Part shown: piece by piece, positions 2,439 through 35,208 of the stretch
Numbering within the stretch: position 1 is the first letter of the stretch
Layout of the letters: each line of letters starts with the position of its first letter
IMG/VR virus record: IMGVR_UViG_3300033145_001147
Span: 1-63,731 of that record
Length of the DNA stretch: 63,731 nucleotides
Strand: one strand, 5' to 3'
Source of the DNA: a virus
Lineage: Duplodnaviria; Caudoviricetes
Position numbers and translations under genes: made by a program
The notes under the pieces: model-generated
Seen by the model: the letters and a program-made list of their open reading frames with translations, nothing else
Told to the model about the DNA's origin: nothing
Databases searched by the model: none

Positions 2439-2483
2439 TAATTAAAGGTTAATATATTTATTAGAATTTATTAAAACAAAATT

Positions 2484-2704: not shown

Positions 2705-2708
2705 AATT

Positions 2709-3200
2709 ATGTATAAACAAAAAACATTTACAATTAGAGATATAGTTAAATTAACAGAATGGAAAGATGTTAAAAAAGCTTATCTTTATTATTATGGGAA
2801 AAGAGGTCTAAAAGGTTTAGAGGAAATTTTTGAATTGATTAAAACTTTTAGAAAACAAAAACCAAAAGAAAAGAATGAATTTATAGAAGTTATAGTTGGA
2901 GGTTTTCCTGGATATGAACCTGAAGAAGATAGAGGTTATGGTATTCATACAACTAAATATTCTTTATCATTTAGAAAATGGAGAGAATTAGCAAATATTC
3001 CTATTGAAAAAGAAACAATTAGAAGATATAAATTTCATGAAATTATTTGTCATTTTCTTTACGAGATTACTTTTTATGGATATGACGAAAAGGAAATAGG
3101 AAAAAAAGGAAAAGAGATTTTTGGAAGATATAAAGAGGCTGTAAAAGACATAAAATCTAATAAAAAGAAGAAACAAATCATATCTAATATATGGCTCTAA
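2709..3200 (+). CDS. hypothetical protein
   Basis: ORF, likely start ATG 2709 after the upstream stop. Confidence 0.7.
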   Translation: MYKQKTFTIRDIVKLTEWKDVKKAYLYYYGKRGLKGLEEIFELIKTFRKQKPKEKNEFIEVIVGGFPGYEPEEDRGYGIHTTKYSLSFRKWRELANIPIEKETIRRYKFHEIICHFLYEITFYGYDEKEIGKKGKEIFGRYKEAVKDIKSNKKKKQIISNIWL

Positions 3201-3276
3201 ATAAAGATATTTTGACCCTTAAAATCAAGTTCTGACAGGTTTTATTAACAAAGTGGATATAATATACCTATAAATT

Positions 3277-3633
3277 ATGAAAAAATTAGTAATTGCATTT
3301 GACACAGACGATTGCCTTATCATTCCAGCTATTGCAACTGGATTTGACAGAGATGTTCCAAATTATGAAACAATTGCTATATATCGTTGGTTTCAAGCCC
3401 AAGGAAATCATATGATTATTTGGAGTGGAGGTGGAAAAGATTATGCAAAAATGTGGGCAGAAAAATTAGGGTTAGAAGCTAATGAAATTATGGCAAAAGA
3501 TACTCGTATGAAAGATAAGATTGATATTGCATTTGATGATTCAGATATGGAACTGGCAAAAATAAATGTAAAAGTAAAAAGATTAAATAATAAAATTATT
3601 CGTTATCCTGAAAAATTAAATAGAAAAAATTGA
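3277..3633 (+). CDS. HAD-superfamily phosphatase-like protein
   Basis: IAFDTDD motif I, IIWSGGG motif II, IAFDD motif IV. Confidence 0.7.
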   Translation: MKKLVIAFDTDDCLIIPAIATGFDRDVPNYETIAIYRWFQAQGNHMIIWSGGGKDYAKMWAEKLGLEANEIMAKDTRMKDKIDIAFDDSDMELAKINVKVKRLNNKIIRYPEKLNRKN

Positions 3634-7378: not shown

Positions 7379-8345
7379 TAACATACTGGACTCAATGGTT
7401 CTAGCATTATTCGTAAATTTTAACAATTAAATAATCATATCTTTTTAGGGCTTGTTAATCAATGCAAATTACAATATAATAAACATATGGTAATTTGTAA
7501 AATTTGTAATCAGAAATATCATTACATAAATAATACTCATTTGAAGAAACATAATCTTACTATGAAAGAGTATATTAATTTATATGGTAATGATATTAAA
7601 AGTTCTGAATATAAGAAAAAAGCATATAAAAATCATTCTACAACAATGAGTAGATTGCGACTTAATGGTATTGTAAAACCGAAACCAATGTCGTTGATTC
7701 GGCGTAAACAAACTTCACAGAGGATGAAGTTAAATAACCCAATGAAAAATCCTGAAACTGCTAAGAAAGTTTCTCAAAAATTGAAAGGAAGAAAATCGTA
7801 TGATAGAACAATTGAACATAGATTATTACAAAGTAAACAAAAAATTGGGAAGTTAAATCCTAGATGGGTAGAAGGTATTAAGCCAAATCGGGGGTGGGGT
7901 TTTTATAAGATATGGAAACCTTATAGAAATAAAGCATTGGAACGAGATAAAAATAGGTGTGTTGATTGTGGTATGACAAACAAATTTCATTTAGAGACAT
8001 ATGGTAAAAGTTTGCATGTTCATCACATTATCCCGTATCGTATTTCTAAAGATAATTCAATCCGTAATTTAGTTACTTTATGTGTGAATTGTCATATGAA
8101 AAGAGAGCAAAAATTGATTAACAAAAACTAAAGAATATAATTATTTAATTAATGAATAATAGATTGGAAAGAATAAAATCTTCTCTGATTACTTGGAACC
8201 CTAAGTTATATTAAATTATAATAAGGCAACCAGAGGCAAGTTAATTTCAAATGAAATTAGGATAGCCGCAGAGACTAAGCGAGAGGACACTTAAAATAAG
8301 TGATGCGATAGTCCGACACTCTTGGAAACAAGAGACAACAAATTG
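7379..8345 (+). mobile_element. group I intron in queE
   Basis: P1 with U.G at the 5' splice site (exon CCATTGTGTT / GACTCAATGG 7389-7398), core CAGAGACTA and GATAGTCC, terminal G 8345; splicing restores CxxxCxxC. Confidence 0.9.
7487..8131 (+). CDS. intron-encoded HNH homing endonuclease
   Basis: RDKNRCVDC...HVHHI...NLVTLCVNCH; own promoter TTGTTA-17-TATAAT 7452-7480. Confidence 0.9.
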   Translation: MVICKICNQKYHYINNTHLKKHNLTMKEYINLYGNDIKSSEYKKKAYKNHSTTMSRLRLNGIVKPKPMSLIRRKQTSQRMKLNNPMKNPETAKKVSQKLKGRKSYDRTIEHRLLQSKQKIGKLNPRWVEGIKPNRGWGFYKIWKPYRNKALERDKNRCVDCGMTNKFHLETYGKSLHVHHIIPYRISKDNSIRNLVTLCVNCHMKREQKLINKN

Positions 8346-8951
8346 TGGTGTGATACACCTTATACTTGGAATTGGGTTGGAACAAAATTCAAACATCCCA
8401 AAAAGTTTGAAATAGATGATGAGGTTCATAAAATGACTTACAGTGAGGTTATTTTAGAACTTATTCATTTAGATAATCATGTTAAATCTTTGGTTATCTC
8501 TGGCGGAGAACCTCTCCTTCAGCAAAAAAACCTTATTCCTTTATTGGAAGTTTTGAAAAGTGCTGGTTGGTGGATTGAAATTGAAACTAATGGGACGATT
8601 TTACCTTTAGATGAGATTTTTAATCTTACTGACCAATTCAATTGTTCGCCTAAACTTTTCAATTCAGGTAATCCTGAAAAAATGAGGATTAGACCTAAAG
8701 TATTAAGGGCTTTGGCTCAAAACAAAAAATCTACTTTTAAGTTTGTTGTAAGTTGTAAAGATGATATTTCTGAAATATTGGCTATGATAGAAAATTTCAA
8801 TATGAAACAAGTATATCTTATGCCTTTAGGAATGACTCCTGACCAACTTGAACAAACCAGAGAGATAACTAAAAGGTTGTGTGTGCAATATAACCTAAAC
8901 TTCTCTGACAGGCTACATATTGTCAAATATGGAGACAAGAGAGGTGTATAA
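8346..8951 (+). CDS. queE: QueE exon 2
   Basis: WCDT, SGGEPLLQ, IETNG, SPKL and RLH radical-SAM QueE motifs. Confidence 0.9.
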   Translation, partial: WCDTPYTWNWVGTKFKHPKKFEIDDEVHKMTYSEVILELIHLDNHVKSLVISGGEPLLQQKNLIPLLEVLKSAGWWIEIETNGTILPLDEIFNLTDQFNCSPKLFNSGNPEKMRIRPKVLRALAQNKKSTFKFVVSCKDDISEILAMIENFNMKQVYLMPLGMTPDQLEQTREITKRLCVQYNLNFSDRLHIVKYGDKRGV

Positions 8952-8958
8952 TTGTGAG

Positions 8959-8997
8959 GGTGGTTGCTTTTATGGAGCCACCTGAACAATTTTTTTT
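8959..8997 (+). terminator. intrinsic terminator
   Basis: GGTGGTT/AGCCACC stem, then a long T run. Confidence 0.6.
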
Positions 8998-9024
8998 ATT
9001 ATTAAAATTTAATCAAATAAAAAA

Positions 9025-9486
9025 ATGATAACAATAGAAAAAGAGATTGGACTTGACTATGCTCATAGATTACTAAACCATGAATCGTTATGTAGTAATT
9101 TACATGGTCATAGAGCGAGAATTCTTATCGGGATTGAAGGGGAATTAATTACAAAAGGGAGTAGTCAGGATATGGTAATTGATTTTAAAGATTTAAAACA
9201 AATTCTTAATGAAAAAATAATGAGTCAGTTAGACCATACTTGTATTGCTTCAGTTGAAGATAAAATTTTATCAGATTTTTTAATCCAAAATAATCAAAGG
9301 TATTTGATAATTAGAGGAATGCCTACTGCAGAGAATTTAGCAAAATGGTGTTTTGATGAGATTAAAGAAGATATAGAAAAATTAGGTTGTAAGGTTGCTT
9401 ATGTTAAGTTTTATGAAACTCCGACGAGTGAAGCAATTTATACAAAAGAAATGGATAATGAAGAAATCGGTAGATTTGTGAGATAG
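9025..9486 (+). CDS. queD: 6-carboxy-5,6,7,8-tetrahydropterin synthase
   Basis: AHRL, CSNLHGH, MVIDF, LDH, PTAENLA, ETPTS. Confidence 0.92.
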   Translation: MITIEKEIGLDYAHRLLNHESLCSNLHGHRARILIGIEGELITKGSSQDMVIDFKDLKQILNEKIMSQLDHTCIASVEDKILSDFLIQNNQRYLIIRGMPTAENLAKWCFDEIKEDIEKLGCKVAYVKFYETPTSEAIYTKEMDNEEIGRFVR

Positions 9487-22295: not shown

Positions 22296-22437
22296 TTAAT
22301 TAAAAATGTAATGAAAAAATAATTTTATTTGATTTTAATAGAAAAATAATATATAATTAAGTTAATTAAAAATTAGCTTTGCAACTAAGAATGACGAACT
22401 ACTTGCAAAGCGGTTCGTCATTTTTGGTTTATATATT

Positions 22438-23184
22438 ATGCATAAAAATTTCAAAGATTTAACAGGACAAAAGTTTGGTCGGTTAGTAGTAATTAAAAAA
22501 GTTAATAAAAACAAACAAGGTAAATATTATTGGTTGTGTCAATGTGAATGTGGTAATAAAAAGAAGATTATGGGATGTAATCTTAAAAGTGGAGCTACAA
22601 AAAGTTGTGGTTGTTTACAAAAGGAAATGAGGATGAAAAGAGGTCATATACCTTGGAATAAAGGAATACCAATGAATATAAAAACTAAAAATAAACTTAG
22701 TAATATTTTGAAAGGTAAAAAAAGAACGAAGGAATTTAAAACACATTTATCAAAAATATCAAAAGGAAATACAAGGGCATTAGGATATAAACATACTGAA
22801 AAAGCAAAAAAGAAAATATCTGAAGCACAAATGAAAGAAAAACATCACAATTGGAAAGGAGGAATTACTCCTTTTAGAATTAAAATATGGCGTTCTAAAA
22901 GATATAAAGAATGGAGAGATTCAGTATTTAAATGAGATAATTATACTTGTCAGATGTGTAAATTAAAAGGTTGTAAATTAGAAGCTTATCATATATTAAA
23001 ATTCAGTGATTATGTTTCTAAACGATTTGATGTTAATAATGGAATTACTCTTTGTGTTTTATGCCATAATAAAACAAAAAGAAAAGAAAATAAATATGTC
23101 GATATTTTTAATAAAATAATAAAATTAAAAAAAAATGAAAAAACTTTGCTTTCTAGACACGGAAACAACAGGATTAACACCTAA
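22438..23184 (+). pseudogene. HNH homing endonuclease with in-frame nonsense codon
   Basis: VFK*DNYTCQMC: TGA 22933-22935 where paralogues have Arg; AHH changed to AYH. Confidence 0.8.
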
Positions 23185-23863: not shown

Positions 23864-23908
23864 TTATCCACACTTTTACTTGATTATAATAGTTATATAA
23901 TATATAAT
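23864..23908 (+). promoter_or_regulatory. DnaA box plus sigma70-type promoter
   Basis: TTATCCACA 23864-23872, TTGATT-17-TATAAT 23880-23908. Confidence 0.75.
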
Positions 23909-23976
23909 ACATATAAGAAAGTAAAAATATTGTTCTTTGAAAAATGGATAGAGGTAAATTAGAAAAATAACAGCTT

Positions 23977-24240
23977 ATGTTTATATTTACCAAAAAAAAG
24001 AATTTAAAACACAATCAAAAGCCTTTGGATATTTATTTCAGTTCATTGGAAGAGGCTTATGGAAATTTACCAGTCCCTTCAGACGATTGGGCAGGTATTA
24101 GAAAAGAATTATTAAAGTCATACAAAACTGAGTGGGAAGTTGATGAAAAAATCGTTGAATTAGGAAATGCTATTGAAACTATAAGAGAACATTATTTAGA
24201 TGTAGCAGAAGTTTTGGAAAAACAAACAATTTATAGTTAA
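23977..24240 (+). CDS. hypothetical protein enclosed by a 27-bp inverted repeat
   Basis: 87-aa ORF between arms 23927-23953 and 24255-24281. Confidence 0.6.
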   Translation: MFIFTKKKNLKHNQKPLDIYFSSLEEAYGNLPVPSDDWAGIRKELLKSYKTEWEVDEKIVELGNAIETIREHYLDVAEVLEKQTIYS

Positions 24241-24296
24241 TTATTATCAACACACTCTATCCATTTTTTAGAGAACAATATATATAGAAGATGTTC

Positions 24297-24788
24297 TTTG
24301 AAAATTAAATAGAGAGGTAGCCAAAAAGGGAAGGCAATAGGGATAGACCGCTACAATACGAATCTATCCAATTTGTAATAGTGCAGATACAAACCTATGA
24401 GATGACCTTTTTAATTTACCGCCGTGATTTGCAACAAATGTTTGGTAGAATAGCATCGCTGAACAGTAGAGCTAATTATTTAACAACCTTTAAGAAAATG
24501 ATAAATTCTTAAAAAAGTTGTTAAACAAAAAGCGAGTTTAACTCTAATTCTATGTAGGGCAATCCTTGAGTTAATCAATGTCGGGCAGTGATAGGTGTAA
24601 GATAAGTTGAACATCCCATTATCAAAGCTCTCGCAAGGAGTATGGGAGGAGTAATCCAACCAAGTAGGATTTAACAAGCTAATTAAATTTTATTTGGAGT
24701 AATATAGTAAACTGAACTTTTGAACTGGAACTAATAATTAAAAATATGACTAAGTCCAATTTCTCATCCTCTCTATTTAATTTTCAAA
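24297..24788 (+). ncRNA. candidate large structured ncRNA
   Basis: no plus-strand ORF of 60 aa or more, perfect 21-bp closing stem, many internal hairpins and GNRA-type loops. Confidence 0.65.
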
Positions 24789-24824
24789 AGATAAAAAAAT
24801 TAATAATTAATAAGATGAAGTATT

Positions 24825-26318
24825 ATGTCTAAGTTTAACGAAAATACAAAAGAAAAAGATGTGGTTGAAAACCATGAAGGTGCAGTAGCATATTCATTAT
24901 CTCCAGAAATGGAATTATATAGTGCTGTTGTTACATCATCACTTTCTAATAAGTTTTATGAATCAGAAAATGAAACTTTAGAAAGAATTAAAGGATTGAT
25001 TAAAAAAGTTTCTCCAGAATTTGTTGGTAAATTAGCTGTATATGCTAGAGAACAAATGTATTTGAGAAGCATTCCTTTAGTTCTTACTACAGAATTAGCA
25101 AAGATTCATAATGGAGATAATTTAGTAAGTAAAATTGTTCAAAGAGTAGTTAAGAGAGCAGATGAAATTACTGAATTGCTTTCATATTATGCTTTAGCAA
25201 ATGAAAGAACTGATACAAAGAAATTAGGAAAATTATCTAGTCAATTTAGAAAAGGATTAAATTATTCATTTAATAAGTTTAATGAATACAATTTTGCAAA
25301 ATACAATAGAAAGAAAGAAATTACCTTGAAAGATGCTTTGTTTATTGTTCATCCTAAAGCAATTTCAAGAGAACAACAAGATTTGTTTGATAAGATTGTA
25401 GATGATAAATTAGAAGTTCCAGATACTTGGGAAACTCAATTAGGAAAAACTGATGATAGAAAAACAGAATGGGAAGGATTAATTGATAGAAATAGTTTAA
25501 AATATATGGCACTTTTGCGTAATTTACGAAATATCTTGCAAGCAAAAGTTTCGCAAAAGCATTTAACTGTTGTTGCTGGAAGATTAGGTAATAAAGAAGA
25601 AGTTGTTAAATCAAAACAATTCCCATTTAGATTTTTGTCAGCATATAAGGAAATCAAAGATACAGTTGATGGAAAATCTGGAATGATATTAGATGCTTTA
25701 GAAGATGCAATGGTAGCAAGTGCTGAAAATATTCAAGGATTTGATTATGATATTTCAGTATTATTAGCTTGTGATGTATCAGGCTCAATGGAAACTTCAA
25801 TTTCTGATAGAAGTAAAGTTCAGTTATTTGATATCGGTTTATCATTAGCAATGCTTTTGAGAAATAGATGCAAAAATGTTATTACTGGAATGTTTGGAGA
25901 TACTTGGAAAGCAATCAATGTTCCTAAACAAAACATTTTAGCTAATGTAATGGAGTTCCATAAAAGAGAAGGAGAAGTTGGATATTCAACAAATGGATAT
26001 AAAGTTATTCAAGATTTAATTGACAAAAAAATGAAAATTGATAAGATTATGATATTCACAGATTGTCAGTTATGGGATAGCGAAGAAGGATGGGGTGACG
26101 GCAAACATATCAAAGATTTGTGGAAAGAATACAAAAAGATTTCTCCAAATTCAAAATTATACTTATTTGATTTAGCTGGATATGGAGATACTCCGTTATC
26201 AGTAAAAAGAAATGATGTGTTTTTGATTAGTGGTTTTTCAGACAAAGTTTTTGATATGTTGGATGCTTACGAGAATGGTTCTAATGCATTAGATGTTATA
26301 AGTAAAATTGAATTATAA
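24825..26318 (+). CDS. rsr: Ro60/Rsr TROVE-vWA RNA-binding protein
   Basis: KLAVYARE, FAKYNR, TWET, MALLRNLRNI, PFRFLSA, vWA DVSGSM and FTDCQ. Confidence 0.93.
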   Translation: MSKFNENTKEKDVVENHEGAVAYSLSPEMELYSAVVTSSLSNKFYESENETLERIKGLIKKVSPEFVGKLAVYAREQMYLRSIPLVLTTELAKIHNGDNLVSKIVQRVVKRADEITELLSYYALANERTDTKKLGKLSSQFRKGLNYSFNKFNEYNFAKYNRKKEITLKDALFIVHPKAISREQQDLFDKIVDDKLEVPDTWETQLGKTDDRKTEWEGLIDRNSLKYMALLRNLRNILQAKVSQKHLTVVAGRLGNKEEVVKSKQFPFRFLSAYKEIKDTVDGKSGMILDALEDAMVASAENIQGFDYDISVLLACDVSGSMETSISDRSKVQLFDIGLSLAMLLRNRCKNVITGMFGDTWKAINVPKQNILANVMEFHKREGEVGYSTNGYKVIQDLIDKKMKIDKIMIFTDCQLWDSEEGWGDGKHIKDLWKEYKKISPNSKLYLFDLAGYGDTPLSVKRNDVFLISGFSDKVFDMLDAYENGSNALDVISKIEL

Positions 26319-26321
26319 TTT

Positions 26322-27029
26322 ATGAAATATGGTATAATATATAAAGTAGAAAATATTCAGAATAGAAAGATTTATATTGGTCAGACTATTAAATCATTAG
26401 ATGAACGAAAGTATGAACATATATATCAATCTATAAAAAAAGATAGTCAATATTATTTTCATAAAGCAATTAGGAAATATGGAAAAGATAGTTTTAGATG
26501 GAATGTTATTTGTAAATGTAATAATATAGATGAACTTAATGATATAGAAATAAAACAGATAAAAAAACATAATTCAAATAATTGTAAATATGGTTATAAT
26601 TTGGACAGTGGTGGTAGTAATGCTATCCCAAATAAAGAAATAAAAAATAAGATTAGTCAAACATTAAAAGGTCATATAACATCTGATATAACTAAACAAA
26701 AGATTAGAAATTCATTAAAAGGAAATATTCCTTGGAATAAAGGTCAGAAAATAGGGAAAGTAAATATTAGTAAAGATGTAAGAAAAAGAAAAAGTCAATT
26801 ATTAAAAAAACAATGGAAAGATAATAATTTTGTAAATAAAATAAAGAATGCAACATTAAAAGCAAATTCAAAACAATGGATTGTTATAGAACCAAATGGT
26901 AAAGAAATTGTTGTTGATAGATTGGTTGAATTTTGTAAAAAAAATAATTTATGTGACAGAAATATGAGAGCAGTTGCTAATAAAACAAGAAATAGTCATA
27001 AGGGTTGGAAATGTAAGTATTCGATATGA
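26322..27029 (+). CDS. GIY-YIG homing endonuclease
   Basis: GIIY...IYIGQT...R...E...GYN with NUMOD-like C-terminus. Confidence 0.9.
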   Translation: MKYGIIYKVENIQNRKIYIGQTIKSLDERKYEHIYQSIKKDSQYYFHKAIRKYGKDSFRWNVICKCNNIDELNDIEIKQIKKHNSNNCKYGYNLDSGGSNAIPNKEIKNKISQTLKGHITSDITKQKIRNSLKGNIPWNKGQKIGKVNISKDVRKRKSQLLKKQWKDNNFVNKIKNATLKANSKQWIVIEPNGKEIVVDRLVEFCKKNNLCDRNMRAVANKTRNSHKGWKCKYSI

Positions 27030-27088
27030 TGGAAGCATTGGAAAATGGAAGCACAAATGTTAAAGAAATTGAAAAGATAGAGTTATAG
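27017..27088 (+). pseudogene. displaced alternative 3' end of Ro60
   Basis: VFDMMEALENGSTNVKEIEKIEL* versus Ro60 VFDMLDAYENGSNALDVISKIEL*. Confidence 0.8.
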
Positions 27089-27105
27089 TTCATTAAAAAA
27101 ATATA

Positions 27106-27233
27106 AAGGTGCCGTAGATAAGAGTTACTTCTTGGCACTGGCAATGAAGGTTCAATTCCTTCTACTTCGAACATCGGAGTATCGTCTAATGGTAGGACTC
27201 CAGTTTATAGTCTTTTTTCGCTTGTTGCCCCTT
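27106..27233 (+). ncRNA. Y RNA (YrlA-like) 1 with tRNA-like domain
   Basis: terminal stem GGTGCCGTAG / CGCTTGTTGCC; internal T arm GAAGGTTCAATTCCTTC, loop-closed acceptor stem, D arm GTCTAATGGTAGGAC. Confidence 0.82.
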
Positions 27234-27244
27234 ATTCAAAAATT

Positions 27245-27377
27245 AGCAAAGGTGTCGTAGAGGAGAGTTACTTCAACTATTAATTGAAAGGTCGTTGGTT
27301 CGAGTCCAACCAAATCTTCGGATTTGTAGCTCAGTTGGTAGAGCATTATGTTCTTTTTTCGTTTGTTACCCTTTGCT
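27245..27377 (+). ncRNA. Y RNA (YrlA-like) 2 with tRNA-like domain
   Basis: same terminal motifs; T arm GTTGGTTCGAGTCCAAC, CAAATC-TTCG-GATTTG, D arm GCTCAGTTGGTAGAGC. Confidence 0.82.
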
Positions 27378-27387
27378 TGAAATCAAA

Positions 27388-27624
27388 TTGGAGGTGCCGT
27401 AAATAAGAGTTACTTCATCAATAAATTACAGAAGATAGATTCGTCTATCGTCTATATGGAAAATGGATTCGTCTGTTTTCTCCTTAGAAGAGAGTTCGAA
27501 CTCCTATAAATTCATTCGTGGATTTGTAGCCATAAGGCACAAACTTAGATTGCAATTTAATTAGAATCAGTTAAATATTTTAATTGAATTGTTAAATAGT
27601 CTTTTATTGTCTGTCGCCCTCCAA
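27388..27624 (+). ncRNA. Y RNA-like 3, expanded
   Basis: same terminal motifs; extra TTCG-capped hairpins, degenerate T and D arms. Confidence 0.72.
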
Positions 27625-27626
27625 AT

Positions 27627-27698
27627 GGCTCTATCATCTAATGGTAGGATAGCAGGTTTTCGACCTGATAATCGTGGGTTCAATTCCCCGTGGAGTCA
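27627..27698 (+). tRNA. tRNA-Glu(TTC), atypical
   Basis: cloverleaf GGCTCTA/TGGAGTC, anticodon loop TTTTCGA, bulged T stem, no encoded CCA. Confidence 0.7.
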
Positions 27699-27707
27699 CA
27701 AGAATTT

Positions 27708-27773
27708 ATAAGGTGCCGTAGATAAGAGTTACTTCTTCGGATTATTAAGTCTTTTATCGCTTGTTGCCCTTAT
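27708..27773 (+). ncRNA. minimal Y RNA-like 4 (terminal stem only)
   Basis: same 5' and 3' motifs with a short loop and no tRNA-like domain. Confidence 0.72.
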
Positions 27774-27775
27774 AT

Positions 27776-27847
27776 TGCGGGTAGGACGAATGGTAAGTCA
27801 GAAGCCTCATAAGCTTTAGAAATGGGTTCGATTCCCATACTCCGCAA
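27776..27847 (+). tRNA. tRNA with CAT anticodon (Met or Ile2), atypical acceptor stem
   Basis: GAAGC-CTCATAA-GCTTT anticodon arm, ATGGG-TTCGATT-CCCAT T arm. Confidence 0.7.
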
Positions 27848-27849: not shown

Positions 27850-28245
27850 ATGAATTTATTAAAAGAAAAAGAAATAAGAAATAAAACTATACATTATGGA
27901 TTTTCTTTAGGTGCTTATGCTTTAATGGAATTAGCAACGAAAAAGAATTTAGATAAAATTATATTAGTATCTCCAAGTCCGTTATTCAAAGATATGATAG
28001 GTAAGTTTCCTAAAAAATACCAAAAGACAGTTAGAAAAGAAATGATTAAGAATACAGTTTCAGAAATGTGTGCAAAAATAAATTGTGAAGTAGAAATTTA
28101 TGTAGGAGAAAAAGAACATCTTTTAATGAAACAAACAGCTAGGAAAATTGCAAAAGAATTTGGAATTAAATTAAATATAATTAAAGGAATGGAACATGAT
28201 AAAAAATTATTTGAAAAAGTTTTAAGTATTGAGAATGGAACATAA
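27850..28245 (+). CDS. minimal alpha/beta-hydrolase-like protein
   Basis: GFSLG nucleophile elbow, ILVSP, C-terminal His. Confidence 0.6.
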   Translation: MNLLKEKEIRNKTIHYGFSLGAYALMELATKKNLDKIILVSPSPLFKDMIGKFPKKYQKTVRKEMIKNTVSEMCAKINCEVEIYVGEKEHLLMKQTARKIAKEFGIKLNIIKGMEHDKKLFEKVLSIENGT

Positions 28246-28325
28246 AGTGTTTCATTCCCAATTCTTAATAAGGAGAATTGGAATTGTTCTTTACAGTAAA
28301 CATTAAATAGAATGGAGGTAGAAAA

Positions 28326-28556
28326 ATGGATACAAAGAAAAGGTATCAGCCCAATGCGAATGGCCGCAAGGAAAAAGATGGTTTTATCTGCTCCAGTGCC
28401 ACTTGGAAATGGTTTGACTGCGTTGCAGTTAAAATCGACAAAAAAGGTGTGTTTGTCCGAGATACAAAAGATGCGGCGGATACAACTTTGAGTTTCACTC
28501 ATAATGAGTGGAGAGCCTTCCTGAAAGGTGTTGGAAATGGCGAATTTGATGTTTAA
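28326..28556 (+). CDS. DUF397 family protein
   Basis: CVAV...VFVRDTKD....LSFTHNEWRAFLKGVGNGEFD; SD GGAGG. Confidence 0.8.
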   Translation: MDTKKRYQPNANGRKEKDGFICSSATWKWFDCVAVKIDKKGVFVRDTKDAADTTLSFTHNEWRAFLKGVGNGEFDV

Positions 28557-28563
28557 TTTTTTT

Positions 28564-28588
28564 AAGGGGGACTTGGAAAATCCCCCTT
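28564..28588 (+). terminator. GC hairpin, probable terminator
   Basis: AAGGGGGA/TCCCCCTT stem. Confidence 0.6.
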
Positions 28589-28632
28589 CATTTATAATAA
28601 AAATTATTAACTAATAAAAAAGTATAGAAACA

Positions 28633-28827: not shown

Positions 28828-29156
28828 TGAAGTTTAAAAAGATAACAAATAAATATTATCCAGATTTTTATATAGATGAATCAGGTTTTTATAGTATTGG
28901 TGTTGATACACAATTATATGGTAGAATGAAGATACAGGTTATGCACCGAGATTCGCCAAAAAATAATTGGTATGTTATACGAGAATATATAAGCTATGAG
29001 CCGAAGTGTATTATCCAACAATTGAAAGAAATTTTTGAAAAATTAGAAATTATTTCTTTCAAAGAAAAAGTTATTAATGGATGGGAAGAAATTGAAATGA
29101 TTTTACCACCTAATGATAAGAAGTATTTAGAAGATAATTATGAAAAAGAATATTAA
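28827..29156 (+). CDS. hypothetical protein
   Basis: translationally coupled ORF. Confidence 0.6.
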   Translation: MKFKKITNKYYPDFYIDESGFYSIGVDTQLYGRMKIQVMHRDSPKNNWYVIREYISYEPKCIIQQLKEIFEKLEIISFKEKVINGWEEIEMILPPNDKKYLEDNYEKEY

Positions 29157-29610
29157 AGAATTTCTTAAACAATCGAATTTTATAGAATCAGAATATGGTT
29201 CAGAAGCTTTAGATGATTCAATTAAAGCTTGGGATTATATGATTGGAGAAGATAATATAACTGTAAATCGTATTTTAGAAGGACATAGAATTTTGTTAGA
29301 AAATTTGAATTCAAGAATTGCTGGAAAATTTAGAAATTGTAAAGTTTGGGTAGGAGGTAGAGAATGTCCTGCAGATTATGCAGTTCAAGGATTACTTCTT
29401 AATTGGGTAAAATTACATGGTAGAGCTTCTAAAGAAGAAGATATTAAAAAAGCACATATTGCTTTTGAACATATTCATCCTTTTGAAGATGGGAATGGGC
29501 GTATAGGAAGAATCATAATGAATTGGCAGAGAATCAAAAATAATTTGCCAATACTAATAATTCATGAAGGATACGAACAGCGGGAATATTATTTATGGTT
29601 TAGGGATTAG
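29140..29610 (+). CDS. Fic/Doc domain protein
   Basis: canonical HPFEDGNGRIGR. Confidence 0.92.
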   Translation: MKKNIKEFLKQSNFIESEYGSEALDDSIKAWDYMIGEDNITVNRILEGHRILLENLNSRIAGKFRNCKVWVGGRECPADYAVQGLLLNWVKLHGRASKEEDIKKAHIAFEHIHPFEDGNGRIGRIIMNWQRIKNNLPILIIHEGYEQREYYLWFRD

Positions 29611-30582: not shown

Positions 30583-31059
30583 ATGAAGATTAATTATAAA
30601 AAGCTAGAACAAGATTCTAAAAGTCTTGCTCAAAAAATAGAAAAAGGAAAGTATGATGCCGTTTATGGTATTCCTGCTGGTGGTATTCTTCCAGCTTTTA
30701 TTATTTCTAAAGAGTTAGATATCCCTTTGGTATCTGAAATTGAAGAAGGTAAAAATATTTTAGTAGTAGATGATTTAGTTGATTCAGGTGATACAATTCT
30801 TTCTTTAAGAGAAGAATATGGAAACTTTGATGTTGCTGTTATTTATATAAAAGATGTTGATGGAATAGGAGCTTCATTAGTTGAAGTTTATGAAAAACTT
30901 ATCCCAAATGAATGGGTAGATTTACCTCATGAAGGATTAGAATTGCCTATAGAAAATAATATAATAAGAATTTTAGAATATTATAATCAACAAATTACAG
31001 TTGAAGAAGTAAGTAGTCTTAATAATTTAATAAAACAAAGATATGAAAAAACAAAGTAA
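30583..31059 (+). CDS. type I phosphoribosyltransferase (Gpt-like)
   Basis: YGIPAGG, PRPP loop LVVDDLVDSGDT, WVDLPHE. Confidence 0.85.
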   Translation: MKINYKKLEQDSKSLAQKIEKGKYDAVYGIPAGGILPAFIISKELDIPLVSEIEEGKNILVVDDLVDSGDTILSLREEYGNFDVAVIYIKDVDGIGASLVEVYEKLIPNEWVDLPHEGLELPIENNIIRILEYYNQQITVEEVSSLNNLIKQRYEKTK

Positions 31060-32089
31060 ATGTAAAGTTTGTGGTAAGAAGTTTTCTTTTGACGATTCTG
31101 TTCAAAAAGGATTATATTGTTGTGTTAAATGTCGTTATGCAGACCATTCTAATATTATAAAAGATAGTTATACTCCAGAACTTAAAAAATTACGTTCTGA
31201 ACATGCAAAAGAACAGATGAAAGACAAGAAGCAAATAGAAATTCGTCAACAAAAATGTGGATATAAAATGACTGACGAACAAAGGGAAAAACTATCAGAT
31301 TCAAAAATTAAAAATTCTTTTACTAGGGCTAAAAAGTTAATTATAAAGGAGAGAGGAGAATTTTGTGAAAGATGTGGGAAAGATATTTCTGATTGGCAAT
31401 TAACTGTCCATCATAAAAACGGAAGAAAATGGGATAATGATTTAGATAATTTGCAAATACTTTGTCGTTCTTGTCATTCTAAATTACATAATCAGATAGG
31501 GAAATTGTCTAGTCATTTTGCAGGATTAGCAACAGTTGAAAATTATATTGCTTTAATGCTTCAACATTTAGGAGTTGATTTAGATGACCCTGATTTCAAA
31601 GAAACTCCATTAAGAGTAGCAAGAATGTATAATGAACAATTTGAAGGATTAAAACCTGAAGCTAAAGATGAAATAAAAAATATATTTGGCACAAGATTTC
31701 CTTGTGAAAATGATAATATGGTTGTTATAGATGATATTCGAGTTTATAGTTTGTGTCCTCATCATTTGGTGACGATAATTTATGATATAGCAATTGGTTA
31801 TGTTCCTAATAAATTTGTATTAGGATTGTCTAAATTTGCACGAATAAGTGAGTTATTAGCTCATAAACCTGTTATTCAAGAAACTTTTACTGCTGAACTT
31901 GGTAAGGCAATAGAGGATGAATTGAAACCTCTCGGTGTTGCGGTTAGGATAAAGGGAACTCATTTTTGTATGGTATCAAGAGGAGCAAAACAACAAAATT
32001 CTAAAACTATGACGGCATATATGTCTGGAGTATTTAGAGATAATAAAGACAATTCTAGAAGTGAATTTTATAAGTTAATAGAAAAATAA
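31043..32089 (+). CDS. folE: HNH endonuclease fused to GTP cyclohydrolase I
   Basis: N-terminal CERC..HH..N..CRSCH; C-terminal ETPLRVAR, SLCPHH, GLSKFAR, IQE, HFCMVSRG. Confidence 0.9.
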   Translation: MKKQSKCKVCGKKFSFDDSVQKGLYCCVKCRYADHSNIIKDSYTPELKKLRSEHAKEQMKDKKQIEIRQQKCGYKMTDEQREKLSDSKIKNSFTRAKKLIIKERGEFCERCGKDISDWQLTVHHKNGRKWDNDLDNLQILCRSCHSKLHNQIGKLSSHFAGLATVENYIALMLQHLGVDLDDPDFKETPLRVARMYNEQFEGLKPEAKDEIKNIFGTRFPCENDNMVVIDDIRVYSLCPHHLVTIIYDIAIGYVPNKFVLGLSKFARISELLAHKPVIQETFTAELGKAIEDELKPLGVAVRIKGTHFCMVSRGAKQQNSKTMTAYMSGVFRDNKDNSRSEFYKLIEK

Positions 32090-32090
32090 T

Positions 32091-32795
32091 ATGGATGTAA
32101 AAAAAGCAGTTGTCGTTCTTTCAGGGGGAATGGATAGCACAACATTATTGTATAGGGTTATAAATGAAGGATTTGAAGTTTCTGTCTTGTCTTTTGATTA
32201 TGGTCAAAGACATAAGAAAGAGTTAGAAGTTGCAAAAAAGACTTGTGAGAAATTAAATGTCTTACATAAGATAATTGATTTGACAAGTGTTAAGCAAGTT
32301 ATGAAGAATTCTGCCTTGACAGATGACATAGAAGTGCCTGAAGGGCATTATGCAGACGAGAATATGAAATCAACAGTTGTTCCTAATAGAAATATGATTA
32401 TGGCTTCGATTGCGATTGCAGAAGCAGTTTCTATTGAAGCGGAAGCTGTTTATTTAGGAGTTCATGGAGGCGACCATGACATTTATCCAGATTGTCGTAA
32501 AGAGTTTATAGAAAAATTGAATGATGTTTCTAAGATTGCTAATTATCATTCAGTTGAAATTCGAGCCCCTTATTTAGAAATGGATAAGGGAGATATTCTT
32601 ATTGAAGGAAAAGAATTAGGAGTTGATTATTCTTTTACACGAACTTGTTATCAAGCTGGAGAAAAATCATGTGGTCGATGTGGTTCCTGTATAGAACGTA
32701 TCTTGGCATTTAAGAAAGCAGGTTGTATTGACCCTATTTTTTATGAAAAATCATGGGAAGAAGTTTTACAACATGCAGAAAAATTGGATAAATAG
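32091..32795 (+). CDS. queC: 7-cyano-7-deazaguanine synthase
   Basis: SGGMDS, YGQRH, VPNRN, YPDCR, CY...CGRCGSC. Confidence 0.95.
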   Translation: MDVKKAVVVLSGGMDSTTLLYRVINEGFEVSVLSFDYGQRHKKELEVAKKTCEKLNVLHKIIDLTSVKQVMKNSALTDDIEVPEGHYADENMKSTVVPNRNMIMASIAIAEAVSIEAEAVYLGVHGGDHDIYPDCRKEFIEKLNDVSKIANYHSVEIRAPYLEMDKGDILIEGKELGVDYSFTRTCYQAGEKSCGRCGSCIERILAFKKAGCIDPIFYEKSWEEVLQHAEKLDK

Positions 32796-32820
32796 AAAAT
32801 TATAGGTTATAATATAACCT

Positions 32821-33417
32821 ATGAAATGTCTTAATTGTAATGAAGAAATAAATAATAAAAAATTTTGTGATATTAAATGTTATCAAGAATTTAGAAAACA
32901 ATTATATGATGAAAAATATACAAAACAATGTTTAGTTTGTGGTAATTATTTTAGATGTAAATCTACAGCTCCTAAAACTAAAACTTGTGGAAAAATATGT
33001 TTAAGTAAATTATTTTCTCAAAGAAAATGGTCAAAAGTTACAAATAAGAAAAGGTCTAACACTTTAATAAAATATTGGAATAGCCGAATAAGAATAGGTA
33101 TATTACATACAAAAGATGAAAAAAGAAGAATTAAAGAAAGTTGTAAAGGAATAAATAAAAAAGATAAAAACGGTAATTGGAAAGGAGGAATTTCAACTGA
33201 AAATAATTTATTAAGAAATAGTCCTGAATATTGTGATTGGAGAAAGAAAGTTTTTGAAAGAGATAATTATACTTGTCGGAAATGTGGAGATAAAGGAATT
33301 GAATTAAATGCTCATCATAAAAAATCTTTTTCTAAATATATTGAACTAAGATTTGATATTAATAATGGTTTAACTTTATGTAAACAATGTCACAAACAAA
33401 TACATCAAAAAAAATAA
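32821..33417 (+). CDS. HNH homing endonuclease
   Basis: [12 protein letters not shown]...AHHK...[10 protein letters not shown]. Confidence 0.88.
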
Positions 33418-33509
33418 AAGGGGAAGAAAAACCCTGTGGTAAATGTGGTTCTTGTGTTGAAAGAGCGGAAGGGTTTGTAAGAGCGGGAATGATTGACCCT
33501 ACATTATAA
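33417..33509 (+). pseudogene. displaced alternative 3' end of queC
   Basis: [30 protein letters not shown] mirrors QueC GEKSCGRCGSCIERILAFKKAGCIDP. Confidence 0.85.
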
Positions 33510-33513
33510 AAAT

Positions 33514-33903
33514 ATGAAGATAAGATTACCTAAAAGTGATGAAATTGATGAAACACAAAAATTAATGAATCAATTTTATTTCATGTATAAAAAAGCATTA
33601 ATAGAATACATAAAAAGTTTTTGTGTTTTTATTGCCGAAGAAGATGATACAATTGTGGGAATAATACTTTATAACAAAAAAAGAAATAAAATACTTTTAT
33701 TAGTTATTAAAAAAGAATATAGAAGGAAAAATATAGGAAAAAAATTATTTGAAACATCAAGAACGATATTAAACTTAAAAAAGATAAAAATATTAGCTGT
33801 TGAAGAAAGTATTAATTTTTGGCAATCAATTGGTTTTTACAAGACTAATAAATTTGAAAAAACTAAACATAAGATATTAACAGAAATGGAATGGGGGATA
33901 TAA
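33514..33903 (+). CDS. GNAT family N-acetyltransferase
   Basis: VGII, motif A VIKKEYRRKNIGK, motif B INFWQSIGF. Confidence 0.85.
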   Translation: MKIRLPKSDEIDETQKLMNQFYFMYKKALIEYIKSFCVFIAEEDDTIVGIILYNKKRNKILLLVIKKEYRRKNIGKKLFETSRTILNLKKIKILAVEESINFWQSIGFYKTNKFEKTKHKILTEMEWGI

Positions 33904-33931
33904 GTTTATAAAATAATAACAAGATAAAAAT

Positions 33932-34366
33932 ATGAAAAACTATGGTTCAAAAGAAGTAGATAAAATGGTTAATACAAAGAATTGGGAACTTTGGGATGCT
34001 CCCAAGAATTCAACTCCGATTTATCAATATTTTCCAGAGTTTACTTGTTTATGTCCGAGAAGTGGTTACCCTGATTTTGCAAAAGTGCATATTATTTCAG
34101 TTGCAAATAAGAAAGTTTTGGAGTTGAAAGATTTAAAGTTATGGCTTAATTCTTTCAGAAATGTGGGAATTAGTCATGAAAATGCAACAAATCTTATTGC
34201 TGAAACTTTAATGAAAAAATTAAAATTAAAATATATTTTTGTCTTAATGGAATATTCTCCTAGAGGTAATTTACATACTTTACCTATGGTAGAACTGAAA
34301 AGACAATATAAATTAAGTAATGAAGTCGTTCAAATAAAAAAGAAATTAATAGATAAGGTAATATAA
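33932..34366 (+). CDS. queF: preQ0 reductase, unimodular QueF
   Basis: EFTCLCP..G.PDFA, QueF-like motif ELKDLKLW, SHE, PRG. Confidence 0.85.
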   Translation: MKNYGSKEVDKMVNTKNWELWDAPKNSTPIYQYFPEFTCLCPRSGYPDFAKVHIISVANKKVLELKDLKLWLNSFRNVGISHENATNLIAETLMKKLKLKYIFVLMEYSPRGNLHTLPMVELKRQYKLSNEVVQIKKKLIDKVI

Positions 34367-34368
34367 TT

Positions 34369-35208
34369 ATGAAATTATTTTTTGCATCACCTATCCCAAG
34401 ATATGTAAAATTATTAAAAGAGGAAAATGCTAGTAATTTTCTTGTTAGTTATGCTACAAAAAATATTTGTGTTTCAATAATAAAAGATGGAAACTTAGAT
34501 TCAGGAGATAGTTTGATTATTGATAGTGGAGCTTTTTCTGCTTGGACTAAAAATGTCAAGATTAATTTATCTGAATATATAGATTTTTGTCATGAAACAG
34601 TGAAATTAAAACCTTGTAATAATATTTATTTTATAAATTTAGATGTTATTCCAGGAAGTTTTGGCAAAAGACCAACGAATGAACAAATTGAAGAATCAGC
34701 GAAAAAGGGAATGGAAAATTATCAGATAATGAAAAGAGCTGGATTGAAAGTTATGCCTGTGTTTCACCAGCATGAGGATTTTAAATGGTTGAAAGAAATG
34801 ATAAAAGAAATTGATTATATAGGAATATCTCCAGCTAATGATGTTTCGGTAAAAAGAAGAATTAATTGGTTGAAAAAAGTTTACAGTTTGATGAAGGCAG
34901 ATTATAAAACTCATTTATTTGGATTTACAGCGTTTGAGGCATTAAAACAATTTCCTTGTTATTCTGCTGATAGCACCTCTTGGTTAGCTCCTGCAAGATA
35001 TGGGCAATATGTAACTTTTGATAAAGATAAGATTAAAACTTTTAGAGGTAGAGATAAAAAACTTACTAACGAATCTTATATGATGATAAGAGATAGAGAA
35101 ACAAAAGGAATGAATATAGAAATTATAAGATTACAAGTAATAGAATTATTAAAAATACAAAGTTATATTACAAGATTGTGGGAAAAAAGAGGAATTAAAT
35201 GGGATTAA
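34369..35208 (+). CDS. dpdA: TGT-fold transglycosylase, DpdA-like
   Basis: IDSGAFS, LDVI, PVFH, HLFG, SADSTSW; context in que cluster. Confidence 0.75.
   Translation: MKLFFASPIPRYVKLLKEENASNFLVSYATKNICVSIIKDGNLDSGDSLIIDSGAFSAWTKNVKINLSEYIDFCHETVKLKPCNNIYFINLDVIPGSFGKRPTNEQIEESAKKGMENYQIMKRAGLKVMPVFHQHEDFKWLKEMIKEIDYIGISPANDVSVKRRINWLKKVYSLMKADYKTHLFGFTAFEALKQFPCYSADSTSWLAPARYGQYVTFDKDKIKTFRGRDKKLTNESYMMIRDRETKGMNIEIIRLQVIELLKIQSYITRLWEKRGIKWD

What the first reader, a model, noticed from the sequence alone, without database searches (positions are those of the whole stretch)
24825..27847. Phage Ro60 with an array of four architecturally different Y RNAs interleaved with tRNAs
Seen: four units share a 5' GGTGYCGTA...AGAGTTACTTC and a 3' TCTTTT...TGTYRCCC that pair into one terminal stem, but each carries a different interior. 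Two have a permuted tRNA mimic (T arm, loop-closed acceptor stem, D arm), one is a 237-nt expansion with extra UUCG hairpins, and one is a bare 66-nt stem. Known: bacterial Ro60/Rsr binds YrlA-type Y RNAs with this tRNA-like module, which can tether effectors such as PNPase; some phages carry Ro60 with Y RNA. Inference: a modular RNP set with one Ro60 handle and swappable effector domains, for example decoys for host tRNA-cleaving defences or adaptors for RNA decay. The invariant GTTACTTC linker may be a separate protein- or RNA-binding site.
Basis: partly seen in the sequence, partly recalled or inferred. Interest (0 to 1): 0.88.

Follow-up and report, generated by a model that had tools for sequence, protein, structure and literature searches.

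The report
Phage Ro60 gene with Y-RNA array
A phage carries the RNA-binding protein Ro60 followed by four small RNAs that share one protein-binding stem but have different inner parts, an arrangement that turns out to be common in Bacteroidota bacteria and in other phages.

Summary
A 24-nt 5' motif occurs exactly four times in the window against 0 expected. It pairs with a 3' motif into a terminal stem that covaries strongly: 94.6% of cells paired in 150 related units, against 35-55% for slid controls.

The units lie 3' of an intact TROVE+vWA Ro60 gene. They are interleaved with tRNA-Glu(UUC) and tRNA(CAU), which Rfam finds and ARAGORN misses. Unit 2 is YrlA-like, but at 44.4 bits it is below Rfam's cut-off of 69. 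Unit 1 is a second permuted tRNA mimic. Unit 3 (227 nt, not 237) is an expanded form. Unit 4 (58 nt, not 66) is a bare hairpin.

The array is not peculiar to this phage. My covariance model finds 304 units in 84 sources and 362 in 80 genome loci, nearly all Bacteroidota. It also finds 8 unannotated units in Caulobacter phage CcrColossus. The GUUACUUC linker is a feature of the whole clade.

A relative with 86% identical Ro60 has six units, with two interiors exchanged relative to their flanks.

Ro60 binding, expression and function are untested. I rate it a new variant of a known kind, of moderate interest.

The parts
24825..26318 (+). Ro60 (Rsr) gene, 497 aa, TROVE plus vWA/MIDAS
   Evidence: Pfam TROVE 7e-35 and vWA_Ro60 2.8e-7. 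PHROG 850 'RNA-binding protein' 5e-61. 100% coverage against homologues, 86% identity to the closest and about 60% to Bacteroidota proteins. D317, S319 and S321 are invariant. The only solved relative found by sequence is Thermus phage phiLo Ro60, E 7e-22.
26322..27029 (+). GIY-YIG/NUMOD3 homing endonuclease gene inserted at the 3' end of Ro60
   Evidence: Pfam GIY-YIG and NUMOD3. PHROG homing endonuclease. Absent from the relative L021, where the array follows Ro60 directly.
27002..27088 (+). Dead remnant of the original Ro60 3' end
   Evidence: Translates with an internal stop. Its last 20 residues match the L021 Ro60 C-terminus at 19 of 20 positions, whereas the live gene ends differently.
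27108..27230 (+). Y RNA unit 1: handle plus permuted tRNA mimic (5-bp anticodon-like stem, T arm, 7-8 bp loop-closed acceptor-like stem, D arm)
   Evidence: Covariance model 55.7 bits. Folds as a cloverleaf when the handle is enforced, and the L021 orthologue gives the same fold unconstrained. The acceptor-like hairpin differs entirely in sequence in L021 but stays paired. No YrlA hit at E<=10.
27251..27371 (+). Y RNA unit 2: YrlA-type (variable-arm hairpin, T arm, 6-bp UUCG-closed acceptor-like stem, D arm)
   Evidence: Rfam YrlA 44.4 bits, E 2.3e-8, below the gathering score of 69. Covariance model 51.4 bits. Consensus fold of 56 such units has 19 of 26 pairs with compensatory changes.
27393..27619 (+). 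Y RNA unit 3: 227-nt expanded unit with UUCG hairpins, a degenerate T arm/7-bp hairpin/mini D arm core and an AU-rich hairpin
   Evidence: Covariance model 38.5 bits over 27393-27619. Fold z-score -3.53. The hairpins are kept in the L021 orthologue with compensatory changes.
27627..27698 (+). tRNA-Glu(UUC), starting 7 nt after the end of unit 3
   Evidence: Rfam tRNA 44.3 bits. Anticodon read from the alignment. ARAGORN misses it here but calls the L021 orthologue tRNA-Glu(ttc).
27712..27769 (+). Y RNA unit 4: bare handle closed by a small loop
   Evidence: Covariance model 68.9 bits, E 1e-17. It is one of the 10 sequences the model was built from, so this score is not independent. Orthologue of unit A in L021 at 87.5% identity.
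27777..27846 (+). tRNA with anticodon CAU, starting 7 nt after the end of unit 4, with an irregular acceptor stem
   Evidence: Rfam tRNA 49.8 bits. Not called by ARAGORN. 67 of 70 positions identical in L021.

Best explanation
The locus is a phage-borne Ro60 ribonucleoprotein cassette, taken over from (or shared with) the Bacteroidota type of Ro60 locus.

Shown in silico: one Ro60 gene is followed on the same strand by four Y RNAs. Each Y RNA closes its 5' and 3' ends into the same handle:
- helix 1: G1-C, G2-C, bulged U3, G4-C, N5-N'
- the conserved CGUA
- an 8-bp variable helix 2
- the near-invariant UUACUUC

Inferred from the family (Chen 2014; the YrlA structure preprint): this handle is what Ro60 binds. 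The interiors are different effector modules, namely two tRNA mimics, one expanded form and one bare 'gate-only' hairpin. Through them the same Ro60 ring would be tethered to different partners, such as host PNPase or other exoribonucleases, tRNA-binding enzymes or an RtcB-type ligase, or simply be blocked.

Inferred from the anatomy: units sit 20-21 nt apart or 7 nt upstream of a tRNA, with no terminator and no promoter-like site inside the array. This suggests one precursor is transcribed together with the tRNAs. Host tRNA-processing enzymes (RNase P 7 nt after units 3 and 4) and trimming nucleases would cut it up, and Ro60 would protect the handles.

Inferred: during infection the set redirects structured-RNA decay or repair in the host.

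The identical handles also act as homology arms, and interiors have been exchanged between this phage and its closest relative.
For: Motif and model hits:
- Four motif copies against 0 expected.
- Covariance model E-values from 1e-17 to 1e-7 for the four units, and nothing else above 9.2 bits in 63.7 kb.

Handle covariation:
- In the 10 seed units, 94.3% of cells pair and 9 of 14 pairs change on both sides.
- In the 150 best matches, 94.6% pair against 34.7-54.9% when slid. Helix 1 is 100% paired and all 8 pairs of helix 2 covary.
- N5:N' shows C-G, U-A, G-C and A-U.

Association with Ro60:
- All rows listed for the 80 metagenome loci fetched with Ro60 lie on the Ro60 strand.
- So do the 300 rows listed for the 80 genome loci.

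YrlA likeness:
- Rfam YrlA E 2.3e-8 for unit 2.
- In 56 YrlA-type units the T arm is 99.6% paired, the acceptor-like stem 91.9% paired with 5 of 5 pairs covarying, and the D stem is invariant.
- T precedes D in 89 of 89 units that have both.

Orthologue support:
- The acceptor-like hairpins of units 1 and 2 are rewritten in L021 but stay 6-8 bp.

Array packing:
- The median spacer is 23 nt, and 169 of 255 spacers are 30 nt or less.
- No terminator-like site lies inside the array.

Literature:
- Y RNAs are modular. Every species studied has at least two, one tRNA-like and one a long hairpin. YrlA was found in 22 phages (Chen 2014, passages and sections 5 and 10 read).
- Thermus phage phiLo Ro60 binds two phage Y-like RNAs and forms a complex with host PNPase (passages read).

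Also in this phage:
- An RtcB fragment lies at 2091-2438.
Against: - No expression data: no RNA run holds the stretch.
- Binding to Ro60 is not tested.
- None of the four units reaches Rfam's YrlA gathering score. Unit 2 gets 44.4 against 69, and units 1, 3 and 4 have no hit at E<=10.
- Single-sequence folding is not better than shuffles for stretches around units 1, 2 and 4 (z -1.68, -0.56, -0.19).
- The proposed C6-G pair fails in 54 of 143 cells.
- The variable-arm hairpin seen in unit 2 is only 48.8% paired across 56 aligned units.
- The covariation alignment A3 was fitted to the model, which favours the structure.
- The partners of the interiors are unknown.
- The RtcB ORF is only the C-terminal quarter of the protein, with no N-terminal part found in the record, so it may be dead.
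- Co-transcription is inferred only from spacing. The promoter scan does not cover Bacteroidota or phage promoters.
Confidence: 0.72

Rival explanations
1. The tRNA-like units act mainly as decoys or sponges for host factors that recognise the tRNA elbow or acceptor, such as tRNA-directed defence nucleases or modification enzymes. Ro60 would serve only to stabilise them.
For: - Units 1 and 2 fold as close tRNA mimics.
- They sit among phage tRNA genes, and 17 of 100 related loci also mix units with tRNAs.
- tRNA finders are fooled by such units in 9 loci and in the CcrColossus annotation.
- The phage carries an RtcB-type ligase fragment.
- The jumbo-phage survey links phage TROVE proteins to RNA repair (passages read).
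Against: - The mimics have no anticodon loop, since the handle replaces it. Anticodon-loop nucleases therefore have no target.
- Units 3 and 4, and 137 of 355 units overall, lack a T arm, so decoy function cannot explain the whole array.
- The same arrays are chromosomal in Bacteroidota, where a role as an anti-defence decoy is not expected.
Confidence: 0.1
2. The units are cis-acting parts of the Ro60/tRNA transcript rather than free-standing small RNAs. They could be autoregulatory Ro60 binding sites or stability and processing elements in the 3' UTR.
For: - They begin 79 nt after the homing endonuclease ORF and, in L021, about 20 nt after the Ro60 stop codon.
- No promoter-like or terminator-like site lies inside the array.
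Against: - In M. smegmatis, two Ro60-bound Y RNAs are processed from a single precursor (Chen 2014, passage read), so lack of own promoters is expected for true Y RNAs.
- In CcrColossus the eight units lie upstream of the TROVE gene. In several loci they lie kilobases away or inside tRNA clusters.
Confidence: 0.08
3. The units are decayed or duplicated tRNA genes and repeat debris with no function of their own.
For: - Rfam's tRNA model gives weak hits inside units 1 and 2 (19.3 and 26.5 bits, below the cut-off of 29).
- The phage genome is full of mobile homing endonuclease genes.
Against: - Compensatory changes are maintained across hundreds of units.
- The units are strictly linked in strand and position to Ro60.
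- Nucleotides outside the helices are invariant.
- All four units are conserved in the 86% relative.
Confidence: 0.03

Closest known systems
YrlA / YrlB Y RNAs next to bacterial Ro60 (Rsr) (Chen et al. 2014, RNA 20:1715; Rfam RF02553)
   Same: - Encoded within 4 kb of Ro60 on the same strand.
- The 5' and 3' ends form the Ro60-binding stem, with a GNCG(A/U)A motif on the 5' strand.
- Unit 2 has the permuted T arm, closed acceptor stem and D arm with the near-invariant D and T stems.
- A tRNA-like RNA coexists with a simple hairpin RNA, as with YrlA plus YrlB.
   Different: - Four units here, and up to 8 in related loci, instead of the two described per species.
- The motif reads GNCGUA rather than GNCGAA.
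- Both strands of the handle are conserved, and a further near-invariant UUACUUC follows helix 2.
- No unit reaches the Rfam gathering score.
- Units 1 and 3 have interiors found only in this phage lineage.
Thermus phage phiLo Ro60 with Yrl1 and Yrl2 (NAR 2025, PMC12135203)
   Same: A phage-encoded Ro60 with phage-encoded Y-like RNAs beside the gene. That work showed binding in vitro and a ternary complex with host PNPase.
   Different: - phiLo has two Yrls upstream of the gene, described as stem-bulge-stem with a CGAA motif.
- Here there are four downstream units of four architectures, mixed with tRNAs.
- The two proteins are distant (phmmer E 7e-22).
Deinococcus radiodurans Rsr-Yrn1-PNPase (RYPER)
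   Same: It is the working model for function: a Y RNA handle on Ro60 with a second module tethering an exoribonuclease, and the Y RNA also gating the Ro60 cavity.
   Different: Yrn1 belongs to a separate lineage with a different order of tRNA-like arms (Chen 2014, section 10 read). No PNPase link is shown here.
rsr-yrlBA-rtcBA RNA repair operon of Salmonella
   Same: Ro60, Y RNAs and an RtcB-type ligase occur in one genome.
   Different: In this phage the RtcB ORF is 22 kb away and covers only profile positions 312-425 of 426. No RtcA or RtcR was seen.

Membership tests
Ro60/Rsr protein | TROVE (HEAT-repeat ring) domain followed by a vWA domain with a MIDAS DxSxS motif | tested here: met
   Pfam TROVE 121.5 bits and vWA_Ro60 31.1 bits, both above cut-off. 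D317, S319 and S321 are invariant in 14 relatives. Full-length alignment to homologues.
Y RNA (general) | 5' and 3' ends pair into a long bulged stem that carries the Ro60 site | tested here: met
   14-pair handle, 94.6% paired in 150 units against 35-55% for slid controls. 11 of 14 pairs change on both sides.
Y RNA (general) | Physically bound and stabilised by Ro60 | not testable with these tools
   No RNA-protein tool is available and no RNA runs hold the stretch.
YrlA (RF02553) | Score at or above Rfam's gathering threshold (69 bits) | tested here: not met
   Unit 2 scores 44.4 bits and its L021 orthologue 41.2 bits. Units 1, 3 and 4 have no hit at E<=10.
YrlA (RF02553) | Encoded within about 4 kb of Ro60 on the same strand | tested here: met
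   The units lie 790-1451 nt after the Ro60 stop codon on the + strand.
YrlA (RF02553) | GNCGAAN0-1G motif near the 5' end | tested here: inconclusive
   All four units read G-N-C-G-U-A-R, with U in place of the first A. In the 150 best related units C6, G7 and U8 are invariant and A9 is found in 141 of 150.
YrlA (RF02553) | Permuted tRNA-like module: T arm, loop-closed acceptor stem, D arm, with conserved D and T stems | tested here: met
   For unit 2: consensus of 56 units has T arm 99.6% paired, acceptor-like stem 91.9% paired and D stem 100% paired. Unit 1 has the same architecture but different D and T sequences.
YrlA (RF02553) | [quoted passage not shown] | not testable with these tools
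   These are biochemical assays only.
tRNA | Cloverleaf scoring above Rfam's tRNA cut-off (29 bits) and recognised by a tRNA finder | tested here: inconclusive
   Rfam gives 44.3 and 49.8 bits. ARAGORN calls neither in the window, but it calls the L021 orthologue of the first as tRNA-Glu.

The most novel reading that the evidence does not exclude
Ro60 loci of Bacteroidota and their phages are cassette libraries. The invariant handle would be both the Ro60 docking site and a homology arm that lets effector modules be shuffled, gained and lost by recombination. Each genome would then carry its own set of 2 to 8 or more adaptors aiming one Ro60 ring at different RNAs or enzymes. The phage would carry such a set, with two lineage-specific modules, to take over host RNA decay or repair or to blunt tRNA-directed defences. 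The clade-wide UUACUUC would be a second, still unknown docking site common to all adaptors.
Probability: 0.15. Interest if true: 0.8.

Novelty: new variant of a known kind. Interest (0 to 1): 0.5.

Why it matters
Ro60 and Y RNAs are conserved from bacteria to humans, yet the function of bacterial Y RNAs is known in detail for one species only. The papers I could read describe two Y RNAs per species.

This work shows that one large Ro60 clade routinely carries tandem arrays of several different Y RNAs:
- a median of 3.5 and up to 8 per locus in 80 metagenome loci
- 362 units in 80 genome loci, nearly all Bacteroidota
- 8 units in a published Caulobacter phage

All share a handle with a previously unremarked invariant UUACUUC. 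That gives a ready comparative data set of hundreds of natural handle and module variants for asking what Y RNA modules recruit.

It also offers culturable systems to test this, such as Flavobacterium, Chryseobacterium and the Caulobacter phage CcrColossus.

For annotation, these units are currently unannotated or mis-called as tRNAs.

Tried and rejected
Searches that found nothing useful:
- A protein-pattern scan of viral contigs with the single Ro60 sequence found no relative.
- A nucleotide search of the phage collection found no close relative. It gave only a 61-nt match in Caulobacter phages and a homing endonuclease match.
- The first DNA pattern scan gave 20 loci, 17 of which were one unrelated coding gene.
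- In the second pattern scan, only 21 of the 79 new loci it fetched held model-confirmed units.
- Sequencing runs: no RNA holder was listed.

Region 23900-24824, upstream of Ro60 and absent from L021:
- No Rfam match.
- Fold z-scores of -0.56 and -0.31.
- No match in the phage collection.
- I dropped it as a candidate RNA.

Structural ideas rejected or left open:
- The C6-G pair in the handle is not supported.
- A conserved variable/anticodon-like hairpin after the linker holds in unit 2 but is only 48.8% paired in 56 aligned units. Only 87 of 214 T-arm units have such a hairpin.
- My first reading of the tRNA at 27627 as Arg(UCG) was a mis-count. The loop gives UUC.

Promoters and terminators:
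- Sigma-70-like promoter sites show no excess: 21 found against 25.8 expected, and none inside the array.
- The Bacteroidota -7 motif TAnnTTTG is absent from the array.

Sources that were closed or not held:
- The two Wolin-lab reviews were not held.
- Supplements are closed. Supplemental Tables S1 and S2 of Chen 2014 may list several Y RNAs per species and phage, which bears on the novelty claim.

Searches behind the statement that arrays are not described:
- Searches covered listings and abstracts only, apart from the papers cited as read.
- None of them describes arrays of more than two Y RNAs.
Full report
**1. What is there**

The window is a 63.7-kb viral record, classed as linear and estimated 77% complete. 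It is clearly a tailed phage:
- It has large terminase, portal and major head protein genes.
- It has replication genes and a 7-deazaguanine pathway.
- It has more than a dozen HNH or GIY-YIG homing endonuclease genes.

ORF 24825-26318 is a full-length Ro60. Pfam finds TROVE at 7e-35 and the Ro60 vWA domain at 2.8e-7. The MIDAS DxSxS residues are invariant among 14 relatives.

Its closest relatives are 86%, 85% and 78% identical proteins from metagenomes. Next come proteins about 60% identical, named by their sources as Flavobacterium, Chitinophagaceae, Xanthocytophaga and the like. In the genome collection the best 80 loci are nearly all Bacteroidota.

**2. The four units**

The 24-nt 5' motif occurs four times, all on the + strand, against 0 matches in 100 shuffles. 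Each copy is matched 58-227 nt downstream by UCUUUU..CG.UUGU.RCCC.

Read directly, the two ends form the following handle:
- helix 1: G1-C, G2-C, U3 bulged, G4-C, N5-N'
- a UU or UC bulge on the 3' strand
- conserved C6 G7 U8 A9
- an 8-bp helix 2
- then UUACUUC

Within the window there are already compensatory differences. Unit 2 has U5 with A where the others have C5 with G. Unit 3 has A10 with U where the others have G10 with C.

Folding energy alone does not support units 1, 2 and 4. The z-scores are -1.68, -0.56 and -0.19 for stretches around them. Unit 3 gives z -3.53.

**3. Comparative test of the handle**

I aligned ten short units from the window, the 86% relative and four other contigs. 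On my structure, 94.3% of cells pair and 9 of 14 pairs change on both sides. No shuffle out of 500 reached the observed values, and slid controls pair at 41-57%. I chose these ten units myself.

A covariance model built from them behaves as follows:
- In the window with filters off it finds units 1, 2 and 4 in full and the first 61 nt of unit 3. The next best hit scores 9.2 bits. With default filters unit 3 is matched whole.
- It finds 304 matches at E<=0.001 in 84 sources.
- On the 150 best, 94.6% of cells pair, against 34.7-54.9% when slid. Helix 1 is 100% paired and all eight pairs of helix 2 covary. That alignment is fitted to the model, which favours it.
- The C6-G pair I first drew is not supported: 54 of 143 cells are unpaired.

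**4. The array is the rule in this Ro60 clade**

In the 80 metagenome loci fetched with the Ro60 alignment (counts from the 300 of 304 rows listed):

| Units per locus | Loci (of 80) |
|---|---|
| at least 1 | 75 |
| at least 2 | 69 |
| at least 4 | 40 |

- The most in one locus is 8 and the median is 3.5.
- All listed rows for these loci lie on the Ro60 strand.
- Spacers are short: the median is 23 nt, and 169 of 255 are 30 nt or less.

Other collections give the same picture:
- The model finds 362 matches in 80 genome loci, and all 300 listed rows are on the Ro60 strand. The organisms include Flavobacterium, Chryseobacterium, Chitinophaga, Pontibacter, Mucilaginibacter, Pedobacter, Rapidithrix, Tannerella and Bacteroides.
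- Among the 79 new viral contigs fetched by a looser DNA pattern, 21 hold 55 confirmed units, and 19 of those 21 hold two or more.
- The published Caulobacter phage CcrColossus has eight units just upstream of its TROVE gene. None is annotated as a Y RNA, and the 5' part of one is annotated as tRNA-Gln.

**5. The interiors**

I classed 355 units with simple motif rules:

| Class | Units | Median length |
|---|---|---|
| No T arm | 137 | 67 nt |
| T arm only | 125 | 119 nt |
| T arm followed by a YrlA-type D arm | 89 | 125 nt |
| D arm only | 4 | 120.5 nt |

Wherever both arms occur, T comes before D (89 of 89).

*Unit 2* belongs to the T-then-D class.
- Rfam YrlA gives 44.4 bits, E 2.3e-8, below the gathering score of 69.
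- In the consensus fold of 56 such units, 19 of 26 pairs have compensatory changes.
- The T arm is 99.6% paired, the acceptor-like stem 91.9% paired with all five pairs covarying, and the D stem is invariant.

*Unit 1* has the same architecture with other sequences.
- It has a 5-bp anticodon-like stem, a T arm, a 7-8 bp loop-closed acceptor-like stem and a D arm.
- It folds this way when the handle is enforced, and its orthologue folds this way unconstrained.
- Its interior matches only its L021 orthologue among the 355 units.

*Unit 3* keeps three UUCG-closed hairpins, a T-arm-like hairpin, a 7-bp hairpin with compensatory changes and a 3-bp mini D arm in both phages.

*Unit 4* is a bare hairpin. 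[quoted passage not shown]

**6. The linker**

Among the 150 best units, U20, C22, U24 and C25 are invariant, and A21 and U23 nearly so (alignment columns).

Among all 355 units the octamer after helix 2 reads:
- TTACTTC plus one further base in 206 units
- ATACTTC plus one further base in 63 units

The model itself rewards this motif, so the figures are somewhat circular. Part of it pairs in some units (unit 4, and the variable-arm stem of unit 2), but no partner is conserved. Whether it contacts Ro60 or another factor is open.

**7. The tRNAs**

Rfam finds tRNAs at 27627-27698 and 27777-27846, scoring 44.3 and 49.8 bits. Their anticodons, read from the alignments, are UUC and CAU.

ARAGORN misses both. 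The first has a bulged U in the T stem and the second a bulge in the acceptor stem. Both are conserved in L021, where ARAGORN calls the first one tRNA-Glu.

Each starts 7 nt after the end of a Y unit, here and in L021. Free-standing tRNAs lie within 300 nt of the array in 17 of 100 loci with units. This is a lower bound, because the window itself is not counted.

**8. Comparison with the closest relative**

L021 is about 83% identical in DNA and syntenic with the window. The gene orders are:
- L021: Ro60, A (bare), B, C, D (YrlA-type), E (long), tRNA-Glu, F, tRNA-CAU
- Window: Ro60, homing endonuclease, F-like, D, E, tRNA-Glu, A-like, tRNA-CAU

The flanks of window unit 1 match those of A on the 5' side and of C on the 3' side. 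The flanks of window unit 4 match those of F.

So the interiors of A and F sit in exchanged positions, and B and C are absent from the window. The simplest reading is recombination within the near-identical handles. The direction of change cannot be told from two genomes.

**9. Literature**

- Chen et al. 2014 (abstract, sections 5 and 10 and further passages read): YrlA-like RNAs lie next to Ro60 in 254 bacteria and 22 phages, the GNCGAAN0-1G motif marks them, and each of three studied species has at least two Y RNAs.
- The YrlA structure preprint (passages read): Y RNAs are modular, with a Ro60-binding module and a tRNA-like effector module joined by short unpaired loops. Many YrlAs have long variable arms.
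- Thermus phage phiLo (passages read): a phage Ro60 binds two phage Y-like RNAs and assembles with host PNPase.
- The jumbo-phage survey (passages read): some phages carry a TROVE protein, which it links to RNA repair.
- My searches (listings and abstracts only) turned up no description of arrays with more than two units. However, two reviews were not held and supplements are closed.

**10. Verdict**

The mechanism is inferred from the family. Binding, expression and partners remain untested.

The window is one member of a widespread and apparently under-described layout, namely tandem arrays of varied Y RNAs. It adds two lineage-specific modules and evidence of module exchange.

Noticed in passing
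window 26232-27088: A GIY-YIG homing endonuclease gene (26322-27029) sits at the 3' end of Ro60. The live Ro60 ends with a diverged C-terminus. Downstream at 27002-27088 lies a dead copy of the original 3' end, with an internal stop, that matches the relative's C-terminus. This looks like a homing event that brought its own replacement exon end.
   Followed up: yes
window 2091-2438: An ORF of 115 aa matches only the last quarter of RtcB RNA ligase (Pfam positions 314-425 of 426, E 1e-33). A six-frame search finds no N-terminal part anywhere in the record. The gene may be truncated, split by an insertion or dead.
   Followed up: partly
L301 (Caulobacter phage CcrColossus, JX100810.1) 2265-3450: Eight handle-model matches lie in tandem just upstream of the TROVE gene in a published jumbo phage. 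None is annotated as a Y RNA. The annotated 'tRNA-Gln' (locus 2672-2739) is the 5' part of one of them, and two 'terminators' are annotated in the same stretch of the locus.
   Followed up: partly
L013, L021, L050, L114, L116, L121, L128, L140, L177: ARAGORN calls 'tRNAs' that overlap Y RNA units in 9 of 100 loci. The 5' two-thirds of YrlA-type units (handle 5' strand, variable-arm hairpin, T arm) look like a tRNA without a D arm. Rfam's tRNA model gives 26.5 bits for window 27251-27318.
   Followed up: partly
window 22296-23105, 23906-24800, 27850-28598: Three further stretches are present in the window but absent from the syntenic relative L021. One holds an HNH/NUMOD3 gene (22438-22935). 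The 23906-24800 stretch holds an 87-aa ORF and about 580 nt with no ORF of 60 aa or more on the + strand. No RNA family or phage match was found for that stretch.
   Followed up: partly
window 54661-57526: The major head protein gene appears to be split into pieces separated by HNH endonuclease ORFs. A group I intron lies at 55099-55274 (Rfam 65.7 bits).
   Followed up: no
window 8322-9486 and 30583-35208: A set of 7-deazaguanine/queuosine-type genes is present: QueE-, QueD- and QueC-like, GTP cyclohydrolase, and a tRNA-guanine-transglycosylase-like protein. This is typical of phages that modify their DNA. One of the GTP cyclohydrolase ORFs is fused to an HNH domain.
   Followed up: no
window 29140-29610: A Fic/DOC family ORF (Pfam 9.5e-14) lies 1.3 kb downstream of the array, between it and tRNA-His at 30430.
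   Followed up: no
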